A stretch of DNA of 56,107 nt, counting the filler, from Sphacelaria rigidula (Eukaryota), in assembly GCA_964200075.2 (NCBI GenBank). It is 7 parts of 7 records of this genome, joined end to end, with 100 filler letters (N's around TTAATTAATTAA, not from the genome) between each part and the next. Parts side by side here need not be neighbours in the genome. Positions count along the whole stretch, not along the records: positions 1 to 7,930 come from CAXNAA020012940.1; 6 more parts are not named here. One strand, written 5' to 3'. The translations under genes were made by a program, and so were the position numbers. The notes below the pieces were generated by a model. That model saw only the letters and a list, made by a program, of their open reading frames with translations. It had not been told where the DNA came from and made no database searches. Below are positions 1 through 42,319 of the stretch, piece after piece (position 1 is the first letter of the stretch; each line of letters opens with the position of its first letter).

Positions 1-1062
1 GCTCCGGTCAAGGACGCCCGATTGGAATACAACACCAACATGCGAATGGAATAAGACCTACTGCACTTGCCACGCGTACTGCAAAACGCCTACTACACAT
101 ACAGTCGATATCCGCCGTAACACATGTGCTGCATCACGTTCAAAACGCCCATCATGCAACTGGCAGCTGGCAATTGGGGTTTGGCGTTCGGCAGTCTCGC
201 ATCAAGCGTCCCACCTAGCCGTACTTAAGTCGGTCGCATTTCTGTTTTCTTCTCTCATTCTCTTCATTCGGCGGATCAGCCATCGGCCTACACGCTATAA
301 AACCCCCCCCAAAAATCTCCAGAACCACGAGGTACCAACGAAGCATGCGGAACGAAAACAAGTAGAAAACACGTGAGGTAGTCCAGGGGTACATCAGGGC
401 TGGAAATGACCAACCCCAACCCCCTACGAACCCCTTTTTTGGGCCCGAGTTTTTAAACAAAAACATGAAATAATTTTCTTTTCAACTCGTAAGTTGCCTT
501 TTTGTGCCGCGTTGGTTTCGAGGCGAGGTTTTGAGGTGCCAAATCATTCGTGGGCTGGAAGGCGACATGAATGGACAGGGTATGTGCGTAATGAAAAAAC
601 GTGTGGGGGGACGAGGGAGATGGGTGGGTGGGCGGAGAATATCCCGCCGACCTAGGTCACTTTCGACGGATGAATTCCATTTCTTTCTGCTGGGAATTTG
701 TGCCGCCTAGTCGCAACCCATCTTGCACTCTTATTCATATTATAAGGCGCAAGCAGCAAGCATGTTTCACGACATTTGCGTGTGACTCTTCTTACGCTGA
801 CCGCCGGGAAGGGTTGCGGTTTCTGCAACCAGGACGAAACTTGTCTGACCCGCGGTCACTTTCGAATATAGCAATCGCAGTCGACAATGGCATGGAGCTT
901 GTGAGCCCTGGTGTAGACTGCTGCATAATCGGAGACACTCATTCGCAGACAGAAAACTACTCCAAGCAGTATCCATCCGTAAACACGCTAAGCTGGAGGC
1001 CCTGCAGGTCCCTGTATGGAATACGCCATCCGTATCACTACCTACTTGGACCACAGCGGCCT

Positions 1063-4000
1063 TCAAGAATCACAAGGGAACCGCCTTTTCGCAAGCCTCA
1101 AACGTCCACGCTGGTTCCTAGGTTGCAGGACCGATTTATCCGCCTGCCCTGCTGTGCTTTCGACCGAACTGGACCTGACACGCTTTTTACGCCCCTCATG
1201 TACCCGTCTACTCCTTCCCGTGCTAATATTTTGCTGACTCTGCGCAAGATGATCGCCTTCTTCTTCTTCTTCTTCTTCTTCTTCTTCTTCTTCTTCTTCT
1301 TCTTCTTCTTCGTCTTCTCCTCCTTCTTCTTCTCCTTCTTCTTGTTCTTGCTCCTCTTGTTCTTGTTCGTCTTCGTCTTCTTCTCCTTCTTCGTCTTCCT
1401 CTTCCTCTTCGTCTTCGTCTTCTTTTTCTGCTTCTTCCTCCTCGTCCTCCTCGTCCTCCTCGTCCTCCTCCCCATCCTCGTCTTCATCCCTGCTGTCATT
1501 CACACTGGCATCTGTGGAACTCGCCTGAATTGCAGCTCCCGTCTCGGGTTGCCGTCACCCGTTCTGTTGTGTTCCAATCAACCTCCTCGCCGTCTTGTGT
1601 GCCGTTTTGCGCGGTCTACCCCTTCCCGCCCCAGACTTCGGCTTCGAAGATTCCTTGAACGCGGCTAGTACAAGCTGTTTTTCCTCTTCGGATACAGTGT
1701 ATTCCTGGATGAAAGCCTTGGCCTCGTCATCGTTCTGGAGCAGGGCGGACTTGTCAGCGTGTTCCGCAGCGACATGATCGCCCATCCCGTACTTCCAGAC
1801 GTATTGAGGTTGCTCGCAAAATTTGCACAACATGGGTAAGTTGGTACAGGGAGTCGACTTGGTCGACACTTTCGCTGAAGACAGACGCAGGTGTACTATC
1901 ACACCCCGCATGTCCGCCCTGGGAGCGTAGCGACAATGAGAGAAGACGGTGCCGACCCCGTTTTGCTTGGCGGGAGGCTTGATCGAGGACCGGCACTGCC
2001 CTGACCGGCCACAAAACCCGCAAAAACTCCTTTTCCGAACTCCTCGCGCTGAAGCATGTGGCCGCCGACATGGTGGCGCATCTTTGTTCTCTTCACCTCA
2101 ACGTTACAGGTAGAGCATGCAAGGTAATCGTTTGTGCTCCCCCCCCCTGCACATGATGCAGAGTCGTCCAACGGACGGGAGTGCGTGAATTCCTCGTGAA
2201 TAGGCAGTAGGTTCACGTCGCTGACCTGGTGCCGCCACTGCGTTGGAAGGAAGCCCCAACCCTCCAGCCCATCAACGGCGCAAACAAGAGCGTCCGTCAG
2301 TCCCCGGAGCTCATCGCGGGTGAACACGAACGTTTCGAAGTTGATGCTCATGCGGGGATCGAGGGGTATGGCAAGATTTGAGAATACCGTGTGACTCTCT
2401 CACAGTGCAGACCTTCGTGTTGGGTCCGATCCCACTCCCACGTTTTCTCTGCGTCCGCCGATGACCGTCCCCTTATCTCAGTAATCCGTAACAGGCTGCC
2501 ACGCACTTTCCCTCCGAAATTCACAACCCCTTGACTGGCCTTCTTCACAACAGCAGTTGTCTGAAAGAGAGCCAACGAATACGATCCTATGTTGTCGGGA
2601 GATACCAGAAATGTAGCAACTTGATCTGCAACTTGAAGAGGCACTTCTTCACGTGAGGAACCATCAGCGGACGGCGCCCGTGTAAAGGTCCCGACCCTAG
2701 AGAGACGATCCCGAGAAGCTGACTTGGCCTCAGCGCCGAGGTAGAGGGAAACGGCACTTTGCTTGTACACCTGCGGCGAATACATTTTCGGCACGTCCAG
2801 AAGTGATTATCTGCGAAATGTGCGAATTCAGCGTCCCAACCTTGTGTCAGCAGTGTTGTAAGCTCTGCTTGACGCTGCGGTAAAACGCGAAACGAAGTAG
2901 TGAACCCACCGCAACGTGTAGAGGCCAACACCAGAGACATGATTACAGACCCCAAATGTACACCGTGCTTACCCGGTAAAACGGTTCGAGAAATAGCCGG
3001 TGATCACGCGCAAACACGACCCGCTCCCCACCCATCCACGCGATCACCTGCTTACTGTTGACTTCAACAAACGGAGAAATCTCCGTGTCCCCAGCTTGCT
3101 GTGCAGCTAATATAGTGTCCAGATCGTGCGCCTCTTCCGGCTCGCCTGCCTCCTCCTCTTCCTCCTCCAATAATTCCTCAGTAATCTCGGCTGGTGTGAG
3201 TTTCAACCTAGGCACCGGTTTGTCAGGTCTATAACGTGTCACATCAGAAGTAATAGAGGAATGCAACGACGCGTGAACATGAGCATACAACGCTGATTCA
3301 GGTGTGCCTGCTTTTGAGCGGAAAATACAACTACACTTTTCAAGCACGCACATCGCTACCCGCTTATTTTCAAATACGGAGACGGTGACCACGCCAGCAA
3401 CCGCCTTGCCGAAGACTTCACCTAAGTTGACATGAAGATTGTACCGAGGGTGGTCACTTGTGAGATACAGGAGTAGAGTCGACGTGGGAAAGCTGATAGG
3501 TGGCCCCAAGTAACCGACCTACGCTCAGCTCCCGACGTGTCGGATCCAAACTACAGCTGTGATACCTCACCCAGTATCTTCGGTAGAAAACTCACAACTA
3601 TTTACGCGTTCCTGCCAACGCATACATGCCAACTCACCCGTACGGCCAAAGCATCATAACCCCCTCTCTCTCCAACTGCCGAAGTGATTCCCTGCTGATG
3701 TCGAAGCCGTCGGGGCCGTAGACAGGGTGGACCTGAAGAACAGACATAGCGTCCACACACCCGCTCTCCCAAACCGATGCGAGATCCACACCACGCACAT
3801 CGGTGTTGCCCGCCTCGCCCTTGTCCCACGTAGTCGTGTTCATGTGGTCAAGAGTGCCATTAAGGCGTCTAGACACTCGCTTCCAACTATCGTGGTCGCT
3901 GTACACCCTTCTCATCGCCACAGCCGCTCCAAGCCGCTCCCCCAACTCCTTCAGGTCGACATTGCGGGAGTGGGTTAGGGTCCTCACAACGGCAAACGGG

Positions 4001-4726
4001 TTTTCCAAACTATCCGAACCCACCTGCCAAAGGTACATCTTTTCGCCCGGCCATATTTGCTTCGCTTGCTGCACGACGAAGATCATTCCTTGCACGATGG
4101 CCTGGATGTCGTGGTATGACTGTGATGTCTTGAAAGCTGTCCCATTGACACGGAGCAAAATCAGCAACAAATGGGCAACGCACGACAGCCCCTGTAGAAG
4201 CTCGCCGTCTGAGGTCCGCTCGAGGCATCTGGGGACTTCGAAAAAACGTCCAACTTCGTTATTTTGGAGCTAGCCGATTTCTTCACCACCATTCGCTTCC
4301 TTGCCATGTGACACAGCAACAAAAAGCGGCCATCGATTCTTCAACGTTTGAACAACTTTTGTGAGCTTGATCAGGTGGTTAGCGAGATTCGCAAAAACGA
4401 TAGCATTCTCAGACTCTGTGATGACAAAAGGGACTATTTTTCTCGCGCGCGCATCCAAAATTTTAAGGTTTCGATAACACCGCCCGCACGCGCTGACGGG
4501 AACCTTACTTGTGGTTCTCCGAATTCTTATGTCGTCGGACCACGGCTTCGGTCAGCTTTTTCACGTCTTTGCCGAAGACGTGATCGCACGAGCAGATCCA
4601 CTCGCCGGCAGCGATTTTTGTTGCTATGGTAGCAATCGGAAGCTCGGCTTCCTCATCCTGCGACTTTGTTGCGTTCCTATCGCACAAGTTCGAAACAACA
4701 CGCAGGTCACACCGTCGAAGACACAA
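1063..4726 (-). pseudogene. Degenerate, intron-containing, internally deleted DNA-transposase gene (P/THAP9-like C-terminal half) with an N-terminal Zn finger, a C-terminal Cys/His cluster and an acidic tail
   Basis: GSDSLENPFAVVR at 3982-4020 resembles the P/THAP9 'QDxLENxFxxxR' catalytic-Glu helix. Three phase-compatible GT-AG introns (4229-4508, 3229-3637, 2771-3047) join the ORF-track pieces in frame. C-terminal motif CSTC..HHVGGH..CGFCG..PCTN..CKFC..HVAAEH. Frameshifts near 2370-2400 and ~2024. Family assignment is motif-based inference. Confidence 0.65.
1256..1490 (-). repeat. (TTC/GTC/CTC)n trinucleotide tract encoding poly-Glu/Asp on the minus strand
   Basis: Visible directly; ORF 1063..1503 reads EDEEEEE... 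Confidence 0.9.
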
Positions 4727-5110
4727 TGTTACAGGTTTAGGTAAAGGTGCATATGCATAGGTTGGGCACAGAGTTCATCAGCGTACTTTTCCTTGCGCGG
4801 CCTTAGCCGGACGATATGAACGGTTGGCTGTTTCGCGGAGAGAGTGGAGGAACGATATCGCGAGAAATTCAAACCCTGACAAACAGAACGCACGTTTGCC
4901 TCGCAGACGCCTCGTGCTATTTCAGCTGAGCCTCTCCCATTACTCTCCCCGTACTGTCGAAAGGCTGCTTACAAATCTTGCACTCCATCTCCCCTGGTCC
5001 AGTCTCCCGCAGAAGCCTCGACACGACAGCCGCAACCGTTTCCTTTGCAGCAGATCTCGATTGTCTGCTGGTGATAGCGCTGGTCGAGTTGGCAAATCCG
5101 AAGGATAATG

Positions 5111-5360
5111 ATTGATTGATTTGATTGATTGATTATCGCACTTTAACTGACCCCCCAGGGATGCAGCCGTGGTCACATGATAGACGTACCCAGTAAAAAC
5201 GAGACTGGGAAAAATACTCGCTGTGGAAAAAGAAAAAGAAAGAAAAGTTATACCAAAAAGCCGAGCAAAAAGACACAGTAGGCTACGACGTCAAAAACAA
5301 AAACAGAAGGAGAAGGAGAAGTAGAAATAAGATGAAAGACAAAATATAAAAAGGAGACGA
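5111..5360 (-). mobile_element. 3' end of non-LTR retroposon (family C) with (AATC)n tail
   Basis: Minus strand ends GGGGGGTCAGTTAAAGTGCGATA-(ATCA)n, preceded by a pyrimidine-rich UTR-like stretch; same end at 15421-15490 and 12352-12430. Confidence 0.6.
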
Positions 5361-7688
5361 AATGATGCGGGAGGCTAAAGGGTTTTCGTGTCAACATTTT
5401 CTGCGCCTCGACGGCACGTCAACTAAGCGACCCCGCTTCTCTCGTGTGGCGGGTGACAAAGCCGATCCATTACCCGATCCAAATGAATTGAGAAGTTGAA
5501 TTGCAATGAAGGTAGGTCGCAGTGAAGCGCGCGTATGACGTTGACTTGTTACGGTATGGTTCGAAAAATAAACCGGGTTCAAAGCCAACCGAACTTCTGC
5601 AAAGTTAGAAACTGCACTACAGTATACCTTGCCACAAACGGGTACTGGCAGTTTGTCGTGGACGAAAATGTCTCGGCCGCAGGGTGATGTGCAGACGCCA
5701 AAACCGCTGCGCTTCGCACACGTTGATGTCGCATTGCTATTGATGTCCCCGCATCGCCTGTAATCTCACCTTCACGGACATCCAAATAAGCTCACCTTGC
5801 TTCAGACGTGTTGATGTTCTCGGTTTTGCATTCCTCCACTTTCCATGAAGTGCCTGCATCAGCCGAAGTATCAGCCTCTGCTGCGGCGCTGGTGTCGGCC
5901 ATCCTTTCAGCTGATGCACGTTGATTGCGGTCCGCTGCACTACCAACTGTAACTCTGCAGACCTGGTGCTTGGCAGATCCAGAATGCCCCTCTTCTTTAC
6001 TTTTCCCCCTTCACACTTGATTGCAAAATCAGCTGAGCCCGTTGGTCAGGGAGAACATATACGACCGTACACTGTGCGGATCTATGTATGCTTCTGTCAC
6101 GATGAAAACACACTGCGTCTCACCACCCAAGCTCTACCCAGTATCTCAAGCAACAGTGAAGAGGACCACACTCGCTGAAATGAGTAAAATCTGTACAGGT
6201 CGACGTCCAGATTCGGCACGTGTTGATGTTTGACCTTGCTTAAATGTTTATACAGTCATCCAATGATGATCAAACCGTACACTTAACATCAAGTATTCTA
6301 CTTACACACTAAATTCAAGTAATTGTTGACTACACTAAGATCAAGTAGTTTACAACTACACTAAAGTAAAGTAATTAGCGCGGGCTTGCCGCCCGGCGCC
6401 CAACCCTCCCCGCCAAACCCCCTTGTTCCTTTTTTTTCTCAATTTTTGAAGATTTGGGGGGTTCTGTTCCATGAAAAATGATATTGACGTACCCTTGCCG
6501 CAGCCGCCGATTTCGACAAAAACACGTTCTGGACGAGCAACTAACCCTGACCCAAGCGTACTAGACGCTCAGACAAGAGGGGTACATGCGTTCTCCTATC
6601 GTAGGCATAGTGTGCGTTGGTAGACCTGAAATCGATGCCGCAGCCGCCGATTTCGACGAAACACGTTCTGACCAAATTGAAACGGTTCTGAAAACCTGAG
6701 GGAGGACGTCTTCCTTGTCCCCCAGACAGGCATCGATGAACGGGGGAAGACTTTTGCACCTCGGATACAACACACGGGGGCCCGGAGAAGTTTATTCTCA
6801 TCAAAATCTGTGCTTTCCAAGCTGCAAAGTGTTCCACGCGCATTGTTTTCTAGTACGAACGGTAACTTGTCGAATTCTGTTCCGTTGTTCGAGCACTGTC
6901 CGATGAGGATTCTGGAAAAGTTTCGTACTGCTGTTCCATGGTTGCTTCGGATGTTTATGTGGACCCGAAGCGGCCACCTTCCCTCAGGATTTCAGAACCG
7001 TTTCAATTTTATGGATGAAGAAAAAATAAATCAAACTCTGTCGCTTTCACAGATGTTGCGACTTCGGTGTTGTTATCGTGACAACCTCTGAGCAGCCGGG
7101 AGGACGCGCGGTAGAGGAAGGAAATGTAGCAATGATCCGGTTTGCCTGCCGTACTGTCGACCGCGTCGCGTGAAAGCCACAAGACCCTAGCTGTCGGCGG
7201 TTGATGGCATGGGTCTCGAACGCAACGACAAGCGGTTGATCGTAGAGCACTCTCGTCTATCCTCCCAACTTGCGATAGCCCATGACCTCCTGACATCGGA
7301 ATAATTATTAGTTATGGGAACCTACTCGTACTACTGTACCGAGATGTTCAGCGTGTGCTGCAGGTTGCGGCATAGGCTGACGCCTATGAGCCACGCTAGC
7401 AGCAGTCAGGTCACCGCCATAGGTATCGTTTTTCACTCCGCATGTCAAATAGGTTTCTACGAGTATTTGATGTCTCATACACCCCCCTCAAGTGGCGTGA
7501 CATGCCCTTCTGCTTGGGCACCCCGTTGGGGGAGGTAGGGGAAACTCGACGATGGATAATGCCCCCTGAGTTCAAATTGGGTCTATCTGTTATTGCCGCA
7601 GCACCGTCCTTGCTGGTATGTGTGTGACAGAGAGCAGTAGTAGCGGTGACAGGAAGATTGCCCTATTTTTTCAACATGTTTTTCAGCG

Positions 7689-7930
7689 CACAGAGGCACG
7701 TCCCGTCCAAAAGGAGAGGCAGAGAGAAAACGATATTCGCGTTGGCGACAGGCAAGAAGAGACGATGGAATCTCTCCGCACGTCGATGCTCTGGCACATG
7801 AAAAATTCGGCGCATGCTGGTAAGATAAATGATGCCAGTCTCTCGAGAGTTTGGGAATCGCCGAGCAGGGACACGCAAAGGGCATGGGCGAGGAGCTTCC
7901 TCTCTGTCGTTGCTTCTCTCTCTGGTGATA
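7689..7930 (+). CDS. Possible exon of unknown gene, truncated by contig end
   Basis: tttttcag acceptor followed by an open frame RTEARPVQ...VASLSGD running to the gap; no recognisable domain. Confidence 0.25.
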
Positions 7931-8030
7931 NNNNNNNNNNNNNNNNNNNNNNNNNNNNNNNNNNNNNNNNNNNNTTAATTAATTAANNNNNNNNNNNNNN
8001 NNNNNNNNNNNNNNNNNNNNNNNNNNNNNN
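7931..8030. other. Artificial contig spacer (N44-TTAATTAATTAA-N44)
   Basis: 100-nt N run with a six-frame stop linker. Confidence 0.98.
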
Positions 8031-8589
8031 CGGACTGTCAGCCTGTGAAAGTGTTGCGAGGCGACGCTCGATGTCTAAGGGTTGAATTCCGGGCGGGCTA
8101 CATTCTCGGGGGGGGCCAACCCCCACCATATATGACTCCCTTCGGGGCTCCGATTCAATTTTTTTAAATCACAAAATCAATGGCGTGCGCCAAAATATGT
8201 ACTCTACTGTACTGGGAAAAAATGTGACAAAATGTGACCTCTTTTCACCCCGTTGCGGACCGCTGCAACGCGCAACCCCAGATTTAGCGACATGGACGTG
8301 TTGACCGTGGTTCACATGACATGTGGCCGGGGTTTCAGCGCGTTGCAGCACCGACAACGCGTCTACGGCCGTGCCTCCTGAACTGAGCACCTCTTCCGGT
8401 GATATGTGAAAGAGTTTCGTGTAGATTTTCAACACCCAGAGGGTGTCCCAGTGCAGATCGATATTGCTTTTGCCAGCGCAGCAGCCGCCCAGCTGCTCAT
8501 GATGTGGAAGTTGGTGCGCCAGCGTGTCGAGACATGTATTACTGACGCTGCACGCAGTCTTGGCTGTGGGGAAGACGTTATGAGGGCGT

Positions 8590-8605
8590 TTATTATTATT
8601 ATTAC

Positions 8606-8649
<44 letters not shown>

Positions 8650-8658
8650 GTAGTAGTA

Positions 8659-8714
<56 letters not shown>

Positions 8715-8911
8715 TTATTTGTCGCACTTTGAACCCCGCCCCTTCCTCGAGATAAGTCCGTGACCTCAAGAGATCAACTCATCTCTTCCCCGGTATAAGC
8801 GTTGCATTTCGGTCTCGCGGATTGGGTCAGCACTCCCGCACCGCGTCAACTCACGTCAAACAAACTCACTCGACTACTTTGTTTACTCACGTCCTCACGC
8901 TTTCCACGGTG
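8590..8911 (-). mobile_element. tRNA-derived SINE family B, 5'-truncated, with long (AAT)n tail
   Basis: Body aligns with copies at 9642-9967, 24637-24922 and 41271-41561; (ATT)n at 8590-8716. Confidence 0.8.
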
Positions 8912-9641
8912 TGTACCGCTTATTTGGAGTGGTACAAGATACAGGTGGGGTGTATGGGATTCCACTGCGGGACAGGTGTACAGTATGCGGGCGTAGCGTT
9001 GTATGCATTGATGCACACGTGGGGGGTTCGATAAAGAGACGAACTCGAAAAACTCGAGAAACGATGCTGAAGTGATCTGTGTGTACTCGCTACCCCACCC
9101 GGCATATATGCAAAAGCGCGCAGTGACGAAGGGTACGAATTTCGAACCGACCCGCGAAAGTGTACTTATATGGGACTTCTGCAACATTTCCCTGTACGGT
9201 GCTGCATGAGTGTTTTGCATCGATTGCGTCTAGAATAGCCGCACACGCCAAGACACCGTCACTGGGAGCGGATGGGCCTTGCGGGACACCTTACATCCGG
9301 CACTTGACCATAGCTCGCCCATATAATCGGTGTATTTGTCACTCCGCACTCCGCCCACACAAAAGTGCGCGCCTTTTGTTAACATTTGATGAGGCCTGTT
9401 CTATGTTCGGGTCCGCTTCGTCCACCAGTAACACGTCCTCGGTGAGGTTCCCAATTAATCAATGTAGAGACATCGTCAGTTACAGTATCAAAGCCCCATG
9501 GTTCAAACAGCCAGTTCCAATGGCTTCGGGCCCTTCGTACTGTACGTCACGTTCGAGTTATGACCCTTGGCACGACCGCGTCATACACCGTGACATGCGA
9601 AATAAAAAATCCCCTTCGGTACTGTAACTTGCTGTGCTGCA

Positions 9642-15420: not shown

Positions 15421-15490
15421 TATTATTTTTTATTTTATTTGATTGATTGTCGCACTTTAACTGACCCCCCAGGGATCCAGCCGTTATTGA
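15421..15490 (-). mobile_element. Short 3' end of retroposon family C
   Basis: GGGGGGTCAGTTAAAGTGCGACAATCAATCAAATAAAAT on the minus strand; near-identical to the 5111-5170 copy. Confidence 0.6.
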
Positions 15491-24922: not shown

Positions 24923-26776
24923 AGGAGGAAATTTTCGATGATTGTCTCTTCGTGCGCAGCCAGACCAGATGCCAGTATTTGTACATTCTGCCCTTCCGAG
25001 ACGCGATCGCAGTTAACTCACGCTGTACAAACCCCGGTGCAACATCATTGCCTATGCAAGCGACGCTTGTTAGTAGCCGTCGTATGGGACCAAAATGGTG
25101 CCCATAGCCTCATTGATTTGTGCGATATTCGCTGACTGTGCTTTCGACTTCATCTCTGATTTATGGATTCACAGTAAGGATATATCACGGTAGCACTGAA
25201 GGCATTGGTAGATATGCATGTTGAAGCTATACGGTGCAAGTTGAGTTGGCTTAGTTGGCTCCGTGTTTGTGGGTAGGGATATAACCAACTACGTGAACGC
25301 TGTTCGGGCACACAAGATGCGATCGAAATGATCGTTCAAAGCAACATGATGAGCGCAGTTACTTCTCCGCACATGCCGCTTGCTGGCGAATCCGAGCAAG
25401 CTCCTTTGACCTCGTACTACACTAATGACGTAGAGTTTTGCTGTTTATTGCACTCAACTCGTTCACGTATCACGCCGTTTGTTGTTCGTGTACAACACTT
25501 TTTTGCCTTTTGAATTATGTCAACGAGCTAGCACAATCTGCTATCGATAATCTACCATCGACTCCAGTACGCGTCGAAGCCCGGGTATTCGTGAGGTTAT
25601 CCACCTTCTGTCACGTTGTTTCATTTGTGACGTGGATGCTATTCAGTCCAACATTTTTTTGCACGGGCTTTATTGTGGTCTGTAGATCACGAGCAAAATC
25701 ATTTTTAATTGCCCCCGCCCGCCTTCACTGGGGCTTCCTGCCAGGAAGTCCCACGCGATTAGAAAAACAAAAGAAAAAAAAAGGACTTTTTTTTTCCCTC
25801 GGAAAGGGGAAAAAAAACGGCCATTTTTGGGCCGACTACTTTTTTTGCAACCGTTCGGCGGCATGGTTCAAGCACGAGCGGCAAATTTCAATCACATTTT
25901 CTTAGCCCCAAAAACACCGCAGAGTTCATTAAAAAAAAAAAACGGACACCGTTAAGGCCCCGTACAAATTTAGGTACCTTTACTTATGAGACAGAGGAAG
26001 TATATATATATCTACATATAGTGCAGATTGTCCTATTTTTGTTTCCCATGCCTATATCGAGTGAGCCACACAAGAGCGCAGCGAATTCGAGAGGATCTCA
26101 AAAAGTACTGGTCAGTACACGGCGAGTACCGGGCTCGTACGGCGCCATCAATATTATCTACTGCAAGCGCGGCAAGCGTAGATTAGTGCACTATCAAGGC
26201 GTCGCGCAGGGCGACGACTTTACGGGGACGTCGCCCTGGCTGCCTGCTATGTAGCGAACATTAGCTCTAGTGGTGACAATCCCACCGCAAACGTGTCGCT
26301 CTACTCGCCCTGCTAAGGCCCGATTCGACAGATTCAGACACTGTTTGACGCCGCCAGCGGAGTATCTGAATTATCCGAGCATTTCCTCTGAAGCCCGCCG
26401 CGATGTACCACCACGTGATGCAGCACAGCACCGTAGCACTACTATGCTAAAAAGACGATGCGATGCACACGAAATTGAAATGTGACGAACCAGCTGGGTC
26501 TGGGTCTGACTAGCCTTGTATCTATCGTGAGAATCGGGTCACATGTTGCCGGGTTTTGGCGAGTGGCGGCGAATGTTCTTCTTCGCCTGAAGCAAGCACA
26601 ACTGCCACAACAACTGAACCCACAAACGACAGTCCAAGCCCTGAATACTGCGCTGCACGTTTCATTTTATCGTCCGTTTGTGCAGCTCAGCACTCGACTG
26701 GCAGTGCGGTAACCACATTCTTGACTACATCTGACCGAAGTTTTGTTGTCCTCGCCCCCGCCGTCCTGTCCCGCAG

Positions 26777-27409
26777 TGCTTCATGACGATAGGTGAGCAG
26801 TACGAAGATGCGCTTGCGCGGGCAGAAGAGGAGGGGTGGGCGCTTCCTAATTCCGAAGACAGCCACCGCAGCGCCCTGACAGCTCTCTTGTCTGGGCAAG
26901 ACCCCGCGGACTCCACAACAGGGGTGCGAGAAGTGTCCCTCCCGTGGAAGTATCTGCCCGGGTTCTGGCCTGTCCTGTGGTTCGCTCTGGTAGCTTCTCT
27001 TCACATCCTCATGGTGCTGTCTCAGCACTGGTCTGTAGCGTTCAAGTGTCTCGTTCGTTTCCGCCGGGTGAAAGATCCTTCGAGGGCCACGCATGCCATG
27101 GTTACCCCCAGGCCTCACGCGGGGAACGGGAAGACGGTGCTGGTTCCCGTGGAACGATCGCCGCTGGGTCCGACGTTCGAGTTTCATCGGAGGAAGTACG
27201 TGTTCGACCAGCGGTCGGAATCTTTCGTGAAGATCCGCTGTCGGGTGGATCGGCCATTGAGCTTTTACAGGCGTTGGCGTGGCTTGACGACTGAGGATGC
27301 GGTGAGCAGCGCGAGGCTCATGTACGGCACTAACCGCTTCGAGATGGAAATGCCGGGATTCTTGGAGATGTACAAGAAGCAGCTGCTGTCGCCGTTCACG
27401 ATTTTCCAG
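26777..27409 (+). CDS. P5A-type cation-transporting ATPase (Spf1/ATP13A1-like), exon A
   Basis: ccgcag acceptor and CAG|gtgagt donor, 211 codons; LHILMVLSQHWSV, FEFHRRKY and YGTNRFEM..F..MYKKQLLSPFTIFQ are typical of the P5A N-terminus. An upstream exon probably exists but was not located. Confidence 0.9.
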
Positions 27410-27789
27410 GTGAGTGAGTATGTACGAGCACGGTAGGCGTTCGTCACTACTGTAGTCAGCGTCAGAAGTATGCAGAATTCGTAATTTCCTAATTCCTCAA
27501 AGATTTTCCAAATTCGTTTCGCTTGCCACCGCTCATCACAGTGACTGTTGGATGCCAAAAAAATGGGCATCGGGAGATATTTTTATCCTCTTGACAAACA
27601 TTGAAAGAAAAAAATATCGGCGATCAATATTGAGTGACTTACGGGTTCGACCGATCTTCGGGGGTCCGGCGAAAGTGCAACCCTAGGTTCTAGCTTTAGC
27701 TTTTTGGTATTTTCGGTGGACCGAATGGATCCCGATCATATAAGTGAAGACACAAGAAAAAAAAATCTAATTCTACCCTATTCACTGCG

Positions 27790-41561: not shown

Positions 41562-42319
41562 TATATGGTTCTGCAAAAGGTTACCCTCTGACACGCACTA
41601 GCTGCTACTGAATATATCCTCTGCTGGGCCTGTGCTTTCAGGGGAGACGGACGCCGACGCTGTATCTACAGTAGTTTTTGTACATCACGACAGAGTAGTG
41701 TACAGGTATCTGTTGTTCAGTTTCTAGGTTGCTCAGTAGCTTTGTTTCCCTGTACAACTGCCAGCCAGGTGACAAATGGGAAAAAAAATCATTGCAGATG
41801 TCGAAATAGAAGGTGCCACCCCGTGTTGTACTCTGCGAGAAGAAAATGATACAGTTGATCTGCTCCCGAGGCAAAGGAAAGGGCCGAAGCTCGTAAGAGT
41901 AGGGCGGCGGGTGTACTGCGCCAAGTTGATGGGGGGATGTACAGGGTTCGACCCCCACACTTGCATTGAGCAAAGCTTACGAACGCTCCAGGCGCCTACC
42001 CCTCATGATTGCCGCGAGGCGGTCTACCCAAGCCTCTGGGTAAATCGGGACACGAACCCGTGGGTGAGGGTTGGGTGAGGTCTTCCCCTTGCAAAGGAAA
42101 GAAGGGAGTAAGTACACACCACCGTTGTAGGAGGACTGGCGGTGACGCTGGCGCTAGTGCATCCTCCGCCGACACCGTTAAAGGTCAAAACACGAAAAAC
42201 ACCGTAGAGTTGTGAAAAAAATACACAATGATTAATCAACATTTCATTCAGCTAGTACACCGACATACAAGAGCACTGCTGTACTGGCTTCCTTGTATTT
42301 TACTCAAAACAAAACGCAC

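What the first reader, a model, noticed from the sequence alone, without database searches (positions are those of the whole stretch)
1555..4228. P/THAP9-like transposase with an unusual C-terminal multi-zinc domain
Seen: helical segment ELLQGLSCVAHLLL...YHDIQ, then GSDSLENPFAVVR, HDSW..VSRRL...DHMN..W, K.VYKQS...SRDRLSRV, and a terminal Cys/His cluster CSTC-HHVGGH-CGFCG-C-C-PCTN-CKFC-HVAAEH followed by a poly-acidic tail. Knowledge: DxLENxFxxxR is the catalytic-Glu signature of P-element/THAP9 transposases, which normally carry the Zn-binding (THAP) domain only at the N-terminus. Inference: from memory this architecture matches an uncharacterised multi-copy protein family in basidiomycete fungi (unverified). 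It may be a poorly described P-related DNA transposon group shared by fungi and stramenopiles.
Basis: partly seen in the sequence, partly recalled or inferred. Interest (0 to 1): 0.7.

Follow-up and report, generated by a model that had tools for sequence, protein, structure and literature searches.

The report
Decayed P-like transposon in brown alga
This is a broken, front-truncated copy of a jumping gene whose enzyme is a distant, so far unnamed cousin of the fruit-fly P-element transposase; the family is common in mushroom-forming fungi and also occurs in a brown alga.

Summary
They belong to a large protein family with no Pfam family (814 representatives at E<=1e-3). All 14 long members that carry a name are 'hypothetical proteins' of Agaricomycetes. 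A confident AlphaFold model of a full-length member (pLDDT 88) matches the Drosophila P element transposase far better than any other solved fold: Z 20.0 against 9.4 for Transib. Conserved D, D, DxxH and E sit on the expected strands and helix. The family has no detectable THAP domain. It adds about 450 C-terminal residues: a weakly Tudor/chromo-like barrel and three conserved zinc sites (C2H2, C4, C2H2). The window copy is a relic. It matches only positions 525-1188 of the 1197-position family profile, so both catalytic Asp are missing, and it carries frameshifts and an in-frame stop. The poly-acidic 'tail' lies behind a TGA stop. A neighbouring gene places the window in a brown alga. No terminal repeats or target duplications were found, so a Kolobok-like or sister superfamily is not excluded.

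The parts
4509..4676 (-). Upstream exon. It encodes ...GEWICSCDHVFGKDVKKLTEAVVRRHKNSENH, a CxC...H...H motif, possibly the remnant of the family's N-terminal zinc finger.
   Evidence: Frame. Its limits come from the two joints in one contig of run X6 (4298>4509 and 4676>4897). GT and AG lie within a few bases of those joints in the sequence. The zinc-finger reading is inference. Pfam finds nothing.
4300..4508 (-). Stretch skipped in a related copy's contig, with intron-like GT..AG ends. It covers most of the frame 4270-4551.
   Evidence: Joint 4298>4509, skipping 210 bases, in X6 only. Sequence. X6 is only guessed to be RNA.
4270..4272 (-). In-frame TAG between frames 4270-4551 and 3634-4269.
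3637..4269 (-). Main conserved piece. It holds the last helices of the insertion domain, the catalytic alpha-4 helix and the following helical region (HDSWKRVSRRL...DHMN).
   Evidence: Profile positions 525-705, E 1.6e-56. 150 relatives align here. Mapped to helices 337-441 of the P0079 model.
3982..4020 (-). GSDSLENPFAVVR. The Glu codon is at 4003-4005 and corresponds to the family's third catalytic residue.
   Evidence: Sequence. The family column is E in 85 of 86 rows. It lies in helix 402-415 of the model.
3632..3637 (-). GTGAGT directly after ...WPYG, a likely splice donor. The downstream acceptor and frame could not be resolved.
   Evidence: The ORFs of the closest relatives stop at the same ...PFG/PYG point.
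2351..2806 (-). HK.S...S.DRL.RV motif and the first part of the beta-barrel domain.
   Evidence: Profile positions 783-904, E 1e-9. tblastn hits at 2770-2525.
1902..2399 (-). End of the barrel and linker, and the first zinc site (CSTC...HHVGGH, C2H2-like).
   Evidence: Profile positions 930-1046, E 3e-7. BLASTP to P0079 866-894. A frame change near 2395 coincides with a 2-base difference in related contigs of X4.
1558..2097 (-). Second zinc site (CGFCG..C...C, C4), third zinc site (CKFC...HVAAEH, C2H2-like) and a basic tail. The stop TGA is at 1555-1557.
   Evidence: Profile positions 1058-1188, E 8e-25. BLASTP to P0079 914-995, E 1e-12. The frame change at the T/A run near 2037 coincides with an extra A in the contigs of all four runs.
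1218..1511 (.). GAA/GAG-rich tandem repeat, the 'poly-acidic tail'. It lies behind the stop codon.
   Evidence: It is not part of the family profile.

Best explanation
The locus is a decayed copy of a DNA transposon that has lost its front part or an internal part. The transposase of this transposon belongs to a divergent branch of the P-element/THAP9-like DDE transposases that has no THAP domain. In intact family members of about 1200-1400 aa, several steps are inferred rather than shown. An N-terminal zinc finger and a coiled coil are thought to recognise and pair the transposon ends. An RNase H-like core, interrupted by an all-helical insertion domain, is thought to cut and rejoin DNA with the triad D (strand 1), D (after strand 4) and E (helix 4), helped by a DxxH motif after strand 5. 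A family-specific C-terminal extension (an SH3-like barrel plus three zinc sites) is thought to add DNA or chromatin binding. The window copy keeps only the part from the end of the insertion domain to the C-terminus, with the Glu but neither Asp. It has at least three frame changes and one in-frame stop, so it cannot transpose itself. It is one of several related copies in this brown alga, some of which carry larger internal deletions.
For: Family: 814 representatives at E<=1e-3 and 268 at E<=1e-10. Fold: the AF2 model of P0079 has pLDDT 88.0 and pTM 0.85. Foldseek gives 6p5a_A E 7.4e-6 and 6pe2_A 9.2e-6, with the next hit, HzTransib, at 1.4e-2. VIA-align gives 6p5a_A Z 20.0, rmsd 3.6 A, 341 residues aligned, model 13-439 on chain 192-566. 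The next folds are Transib 9.4, ISCth4 8.8, RAG1 8.7 and Hermes 6.3. Catalytic layout: D61 lies in strand 56-65. D179 follows strand 173-178. D227-x-x-H230 follows strand 223-226. Helices fill 228-389. E405 lies in helix 402-415. This is the layout reported for the P transposase: D230 on beta-1, D303 on beta-4, D339(2)H after beta-5, insertion domain 339-528, and E531 (PMC8230255, passages read). Conservation in A2: D61 in 38 of 38 rows, D179 in 47 of 48, D227 in 54 of 55, H230 in 52 of 54, E405 in 85 of 86. Independent lead: the ESM Atlas places P0009 next to clusters carrying PF21787/PF21788/PF21789 and named 'P transposase'. These include a Basidiomycota cluster and a Bacillariophyta cluster. 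PF21787 is the only Pfam family hit by more than one of 31 members at E<=10 (2 of 31, best E 0.01). Mobility: three paralogues within one 90% cluster lie on two contigs of Mycena rebaudengoi. In the alga's read sets, several distinct contigs with 3-18 differences cover the same stretches. Joined forms skip 1.9-2.1 kb (2367>4244 in X1 and X3; 2175>4205 and 2330>4460 in X6), across runs from three studies. Relic status: the profile matches only positions 525-1188 of 1197. All 194 tblastn HSPs lie within 1564-4464. Two frame changes coincide with indels that restore the frame in related contigs: an extra A at 2037 in all four runs, and 2 bases fewer at 2395 in X4.
Against: No terminal inverted repeats or target-site duplication were found, and no full-length genomic copy could be fetched. 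Pfam's P/THAP9 models reach their cut-off on none of 51 members scanned or 10 window pieces. A profile search of PDB sequences does not find the P transposase. No THAP domain was detected. The D1-D2 spacing is 118 residues, against 73 in the Drosophila enzyme (PMC8230255). [quoted passage not shown] The fold evidence rests on a predicted model of a fungal relative, not on the window's own protein. At 2037 no laid contig shows the window's version, so that frameshift could be an assembly error. Summed contig depths are not copy numbers.
Confidence: 0.75

Rival explanations
1. The family belongs not to P proper but to Kolobok or to an unnamed sister superfamily of the C/DxxH group. P is merely the nearest fold with a solved structure.
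For: [quoted passage not shown] Pfam P models fail at their thresholds. THAP was not detected. D1-D2 spacing is 118 against 73. There is an extra C-terminal module of about 450 aa.
Against: Z 20 over 341 residues, including the whole insertion domain, is twice the score of any other transposase fold. All ten best Atlas hits that carry a family carry P-type families. The only recurrent weak Pfam hit is the P-type RNase H N-terminal domain.
Confidence: 0.15
2. The window locus is a live gene. It would be spliced and would encode a protein that lacks the catalytic Asp residues but keeps the zinc-binding parts. This would resemble the truncated repressors made by internally deleted P elements, or a domesticated gene. 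The apparent frameshifts would be assembly errors or unrecognised introns.
For: One X6 contig joins 4676/4509 and 4298/4205 and runs on through 2175-1489. Two of its joints have intron-like GT..AG ends. At 2037 every laid contig has the extra A that restores the frame. 11 of 12 zinc ligands align directly to those of P0079. The comparison with P-element repressors is recalled knowledge.
Against: That contig differs from the window by 46 letters and 5 gaps in 1489-2175 and lacks 2176-4204, so it comes from another copy. X6 is only guessed to be RNA. The window has an in-frame TAG at 4270 and further frame changes near 2810 and 2395. No consistent splice joins 3637 to 3422.
Confidence: 0.1
3. 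The family is a host gene family of fungi and algae (a domesticated transposase), not a mobile element.
For: No ends were found. All named members are annotated simply as hypothetical proteins.
Against: The catalytic residues are nearly invariant. There are many fragments and near-identical paralogues, and deletion derivatives in the alga. Agaricomycete sequences of different orders are intermixed in one clade.
Confidence: 0.04

Closest known systems
Drosophila P element transposase (PDB 6P5A/6PE2) and the P/THAP9 superfamily (Pfam PF21787, PF21788, PF21789)
   Same: Both have an RNase H-like core split by an all-helical insertion domain. The D, D, DxxH and E residues sit on the same secondary-structure elements. 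The structural match is Z 20.0 over 341 residues. The Glu lies in a D.LE..F...R helix. Internally deleted derivatives exist.
   Different: No THAP domain was detected. Instead there is a short CxxC...H...C/H finger near the N-terminus (by eye). The D1-D2 spacing is 118, not 73. About 450 extra C-terminal residues carry a barrel and three zinc sites. Pfam P models stay below threshold. GTP dependence, TIRs and the 8-bp duplication are unknown.
Kolobok superfamily
   Same: [quoted passage not shown]
   Different: No Kolobok profile or structure was available here. Kolobok makes TTAA duplications, which could not be checked.
Transib/RAG1 and hAT (Hermes) transposases
   Same: They have the same general plan, a DDE core with a helical insertion domain. 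They are next in the structural lists.
   Different: The scores are much weaker (Z 9.4, 8.7 and 6.3, against 20.0).
KDZ (Kyakuja-Dileera-Zisupton) and Plavaka transposons of Agaricomycetes
   Same: They are also large, multi-copy, cysteine-rich transposase families expanded in mushroom-forming fungi (recalled knowledge; KDZ abundance from PMC5751038 passages).
   Different: No Pfam match to their models appeared in any of 51 members. The fold match is to P.

Membership tests
P element / THAP9-like transposases (P superfamily) | RNase H-like core with D on beta-1, D at beta-4 and E on alpha-4 | tested here: met
   Met for the family. D61, D179 and E405 of P0079 sit on those elements of the model and are conserved in 38 of 38, 47 of 48 and 85 of 86 rows. 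The window copy keeps only the Glu (codon 4003-4005). Both Asp regions are absent.
P element / THAP9-like transposases (P superfamily) | [C/D]xxH motif directly after beta-5 | tested here: met
   D227-P-K-H230 follows strand 223-226. D is present in 54 of 55 rows and H in 52 of 54. The motif is not specific to P.
P element / THAP9-like transposases (P superfamily) | [quoted passage not shown] | tested here: met
   Model residues 13-439 align to 6p5a_A 192-566 with Z 20.0, rmsd 3.6 A and 341 residues, and Foldseek E 7.4e-6. GTP binding itself is not testable here.
P element / THAP9-like transposases (P superfamily) | Match to Pfam PF21787/PF21788/PF21789/PF12017/PF12596 above the curated cut-off | tested here: not met
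   None of the 10 window pieces matches. None of 51 members reaches the cut-off. PF21787 appears only weakly, in 2 of 31 members, best E 0.01.
P element / THAP9-like transposases (P superfamily) | N-terminal THAP zinc domain | tested here: not met
   THAP is not among the 25 of 28 families listed at E<=10 for 31 long members, and it does not appear. The N-terminal CxxC...H...C/H finger was seen by eye only.
P element / THAP9-like transposases (P superfamily) | Terminal inverted repeats and 8-bp target-site duplication | not testable with these tools
   No flanking inverted repeat is in the window. The genome is not held. No related loci could be fetched.
Kolobok | TTAA 4-bp duplication, RR..YY ends, Kolobok-type core | not tested
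   No Kolobok profile, structure or full-length genomic copy was available. Only the shared C/DxxH motif is known.
KDZ / Plavaka transposases | Match to their Pfam models | tested here: not met
   No such family was reported for any of 51 members or 10 window pieces.
Tudor / chromo-barrel ('Royal') domains, for the C-terminal barrel | SH3-like five-stranded barrel superposable on solved readers | tested here: inconclusive
   The best match is Z 5.3 (MRG15 chromo barrel). Tudor, PWWP, BAH and SAWADEE domains score Z 4-5 on model residues 331 to about 470 of P0097. This is below the level at which such matches are reliable. Foldseek finds nothing at E<=1e-3.
C2H2-type zinc fingers, for the C-terminal zinc sites | CxxC...H...H on a beta-beta-alpha unit | tested here: inconclusive
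   The model shows beta-beta-alpha units at 869-896 and 963-994. Ligands are conserved: C872 in 37 of 38 rows, C875 in 46 of 46, H887 in 48 of 48, H891 in 37 of 40, C966 in 25 of 30, C969 in 26 of 26, H990 in 26 of 26, H995 in 26 of 26. Sequence matches are only weak: ZNF64 at E 0.17 and zf_C2HC_14 at E 0.06-0.13.

The most novel reading that the evidence does not exclude
This would be an unnamed major clade of P-like transposons, spread from mushroom-forming fungi to brown algae, that replaced THAP by other zinc fingers. It would have acquired a C-terminal chromatin-reader-like barrel plus a three-zinc module that steers integration. In the alga, its internally deleted copies would be transcribed and spliced into catalytically dead zinc-finger proteins that act like P-element repressors.
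Probability: 0.15. Interest if true: 0.7.

Novelty: new variant of a known kind. Interest (0 to 1): 0.5.

Why it matters
A survey that relied on Pfam models reported P-type transposons as nearly absent from fungi: 11 copies, and RepBase references only from Pucciniales and Allomyces (PMC5751038, passages). If this family is P-type, one of the larger unannotated protein families of Agaricomycetes is a P relative that those models miss. In that case the superfamily's host range, domain repertoire and age have been underestimated. The family also offers a natural P-like enzyme with a different DNA-binding arrangement and an added C-terminal module. The window copy itself is an ordinary dead fragment.

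Tried and rejected
The own genome is not held. Word-index protein searches were nearly blind to the family: no hits and 2 hits.

A profile of the family against PDB sequences gave nothing below E 0.17.

Searches for related loci in metagenome contigs failed. Alignments A4 and A5 were not conserved enough. The window piece and P0015 gave no confirmed locus. So no full-length genomic copy, TIR or TSD was obtained.

Inverted-repeat and self-BLAST searches of 1-9000 found no flanking TIR.

No RNA holder is listed for the stretch. X6 is only guessed to be RNA.

Names for the non-fungal side of the tree could not be obtained. None of P0002, P0003, P0005, P0016 and P0023 or P0004, P0006, P0007, P0036, P0051, P0069, P0080, P0084 and P0093 carries a name. 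P0009, P0015 and P0044 are called only 'hypothetical protein', with no organism.

The C-terminal half remains unexplained. Foldseek found nothing at E<=1e-3. The Atlas found only unannotated Basidiomycota clusters. The zinc module was not searched on its own.

I could not find a GT-AG intron that joins 3637 to 3422 in frame.

KDZ, Plavaka, hAT and Transib were considered and set aside (see the membership table).

Literature searches and passages of the four papers opened gave no description of this family. RepBase, and Yuan and Wessler 2011 with its supplements, were not seen.

Rfam finds nothing in 4800-5600. Earlier-findings look-ups gave nothing on this genome or sequence. Two notes on P-type fragments in other genomes were not used.
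Full report
WHAT IS IN THE SEQUENCE. They lie in separate stop-to-stop frames: 3634-4269, 2348-2806, 1899-2399 and 1555-2097. Frames 4270-4551 and 3634-4269 are one frame interrupted by a TAG at 4270-4272. The acidic stretch 1063-1554 is in frame with 1555-2097 but lies behind the TGA at 1555-1557. It coincides with a GAA-rich tandem repeat at 1218-1511. Pfam finds nothing credible on any of ten pieces. The window has only ten frames of 200 aa or more in 56 kb. An exon of a P5-type ATPase at 26735-27436 is 80% identical to an Ectocarpus protein, 70% to Choristocarpus and 57% to Phaeothamnion. The window therefore comes from a brown alga.

THE FAMILY. A full HMMER search was run with 3634-4551, reading the stop as X. 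It found 814 representatives at E<=1e-3, 268 at E<=1e-10 and 8 at E<=1e-30. The best hit has 49% identity. Many hits are fragments, but 47 of the 150 listed have 700 aa or more. Of those 47, 41 carry D.LE..F...R and 24 carry CG[FY]CG about 500 residues further on. None of 51 members scanned reaches the cut-off of any transposase family in Pfam. The only family hit by more than one of 31 members at E<=10 is PF21787, the P-type RNase H N-terminal domain (2 of 31, best E 0.01).

All 14 long members that carry an organism name are Agaricomycete 'hypothetical proteins'. The genera are Pleurotus, Dentipellis, Sphaerobolus, Hohenbuehelia, Mycena (two species), Rhodofomes, Rickenella, Marasmius, Ceratobasidium, Paramarasmius, Agaricus, Plicaturopsis and Exidia. 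One 90% cluster holds three Mycena rebaudengoi proteins from two contigs.

WHAT THE FAMILY IS. An AlphaFold2 model of P0079 (Rickenella, 1016 aa, 86-row alignment) is confident, with mean pLDDT 88.0 and pTM 0.85. Foldseek against the PDB gives the Drosophila P element transposase first: 6p5a_A at E 7.4e-6 and 6pe2_A at 9.2e-6. These are three orders of magnitude ahead of HzTransib (1.4e-2), RAG1 and Hermes. VIA-align gives 6p5a_A Z 20.0, rmsd 3.6 A and 341 aligned residues, with model 13-439 on chain 192-566. Transib scores 9.4, ISCth4 8.8, RAG1 8.7 and Hermes 6.3.

The conserved residues lie where the P 'signature' puts them.
- D61 is in strand 56-65.
- D179 lies just after strand 173-178.
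- D227-P-K-H230 lies just after strand 223-226.
- An all-helical block fills 228-389.
- E405 is in helix 402-415.

The passages I read of PMC8230255 give D230 on beta-1, D303 on beta-4, a D(2)H motif at D339 right after beta-5, an insertion domain at 339-528, and E531 on alpha-4. Conservation in the 86-row alignment is D61 in 38 of 38 rows, D179 in 47 of 48, D227 in 54 of 55, H230 in 52 of 54 and E405 in 85 of 86. A further invariant motif, DPxDxQNVP, lies in the insertion domain (D280 in 75 of 75 rows). Its role is unknown.

A language-model search with P0009 gives an independent kind of lead. It lists Basidiomycota clusters at 0.97, one of them with PF21787 in 45% of members, PF21788 in 29% and PF21789 in 12%. 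It then lists THAP9-like and 'P transposase' clusters of animals, and a cluster whose commonest phylum is Bacillariophyta.

DIFFERENCES FROM CANONICAL P. THAP was not detected in any scan. By eye, the N-termini carry a short CxxC...H...C/H finger followed by a coiled-coil-like stretch. D1-D2 spacing is 118 residues against 73. The proteins continue for about 450 residues beyond the part that aligns with the P transposase.

In the models this extension has three parts. First comes a disordered acidic linker. Then comes a beta-rich domain (P0079 646-772, P0097 331 to about 470). Last comes a cysteine/histidine module. The barrel gives only weak matches: Z 5.3 to the MRG15 chromo barrel, and Z 4-5 to Tudor, PWWP, BAH and SAWADEE domains. 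Foldseek finds nothing at E<=1e-3. This is a lead, not an assignment.

The zinc module has twelve conserved ligands in three groups.
- C872, C875, H887 and H891, on a beta-beta-alpha unit.
- C914, C917, C922 and C939.
- C966, C969, H990 and H995, on a second beta-beta-alpha unit.

The Atlas knows this half only from unannotated Basidiomycota clusters.

THE WINDOW COPY. A profile of 31 long members (1197 positions) matches the window at four places:
- 3637-4269: positions 525-705, E 1.6e-56.
- 2351-2806: positions 783-904, E 1e-9.
- 1902-2399: positions 930-1046, E 3e-7.
- 1558-2097: positions 1058-1188, E 8e-25.

Nothing in the window matches positions 1-524; the best is E 0.13, on the other strand at 41592. 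All 194 tblastn HSPs from 150 relatives fall within 1564-4464. The copy therefore lacks both catalytic Asp residues and the DxxH motif, and keeps the Glu (codon 4003-4005). Eleven of the twelve zinc ligands align directly to P0079. The twelfth has a Cys two residues away.

READ EVIDENCE. Contigs of four runs from three studies were laid on 1000-5600. One 920-base contig (3072-3991) is identical to the window, or differs by one letter, in X1, X3 and X4. Elsewhere, distinct contigs with 3-18 differences cover the same stretches, so related copies exist. The summed depths are higher there, but they are not copy numbers.

Two of the frame changes I had placed by eye coincide with indels in those related contigs. 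An extra A lies behind 2037 in all four runs, where no contig shows the window's version. Two bases fewer occur at 2395 in X4. By my arithmetic, each indel restores one continuous frame.

Joined forms skip 2368-4243 (X1, X3), 2176-4204 with 108 other letters in between (X6), and 2331-4459 (X6). This is the pattern expected of internally deleted derivatives. One X6 contig also skips 4299-4508 and 4677-4896. In the window sequence these stretches have GT and AG within a few bases of their ends, which is consistent with splicing. However, X6 is only guessed to be RNA.

The exon end at ...WPYG, followed by GTGAGT, is shared with the ORF ends of the closest relatives. I could not join it in frame to the next piece.

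PLACE IN THE FAMILY. A tree was built from 122 rows and 184 columns (quick search, SH-aLRT only). Rows covering fewer than 135 query residues were dropped. All 15 named Agaricomycete rows fall in one clade of 71 rows (support 99). The window falls in a separate clade of 14 unnamed rows (support 98) on the other side. The algal copy is thus not nested among the sampled fungal sequences. None of the relatives looked up on its side of the tree carries an organism name.

WHAT STAYS OPEN. No ends or target duplications were found. The C/DxxH motif is shared with hAT, MuDR, Kolobok and Dada (PMC9587614, passages), and Kolobok has no solved structure. So I rate 'P-type in the broad sense' at about 0.75, and a Kolobok-like or sister superfamily at about 0.15.

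A Pfam-based survey reported only 11 P copies in fungi (PMC5751038, passages). My six literature searches found no description of this family. RepBase and the supplements of Yuan and Wessler 2011 were not available, and they may already hold such elements.

VERDICT. The locus itself is a dead fragment. The family it reveals is a divergent, unannotated variant of a known kind of transposase.

Noticed in passing
window 5121-5192 (second copy 15429-15484): This is a segment of about 72 bases of extreme abundance in all four read sets. Summed contig depth for 5004-5157 is 464,525 in X1, against about 72 for the unique stretch 3156-3617. Hundreds of different flanks begin at 5120/5121 and 5189-5192. 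A 91%-identical copy lies at 15429-15484. Rfam has no match. It may be a very high-copy short repeat or a MITE end.
   Followed up: partly
window 26735-27436 (+): This is an exon of a P5-type cation ATPase. It is 80% identical to an Ectocarpus sp. protein, 70% to Choristocarpus and 57% to Phaeothamnion. It places the window in a brown alga other than that Ectocarpus strain.
   Followed up: partly
window 6674-6703 / 6980-7009 and 6496-6531 / 6636-6670: A 30-nt inverted repeat (97%) has 276 nt between its arms. Beside it lies a 36-nt direct repeat (94%). Together they look like a small MITE-like element.
   Followed up: no
window 8561-8739 and 7931-8030: There is a long (TTA)n microsatellite, and an assembly gap of N flanked by TTAATTAATT. 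The window holds 528 N in all.
   Followed up: no
P0132 residues 12-111: One family member starts with a prolyl-oligopeptidase beta-propeller segment (PF02897, E 4.5e-12). This is probably a gene model that fused a neighbouring gene to the transposase.
   Followed up: no
family insertion domain (P0079 277-285): The motif DPxDxQNVP is almost invariant: D280 in 75 of 75 rows and Q282 in 72 of 75. It lies in the domain that superposes on the GTP-binding domain of the P transposase. Whether it binds a nucleotide is unknown.
   Followed up: no
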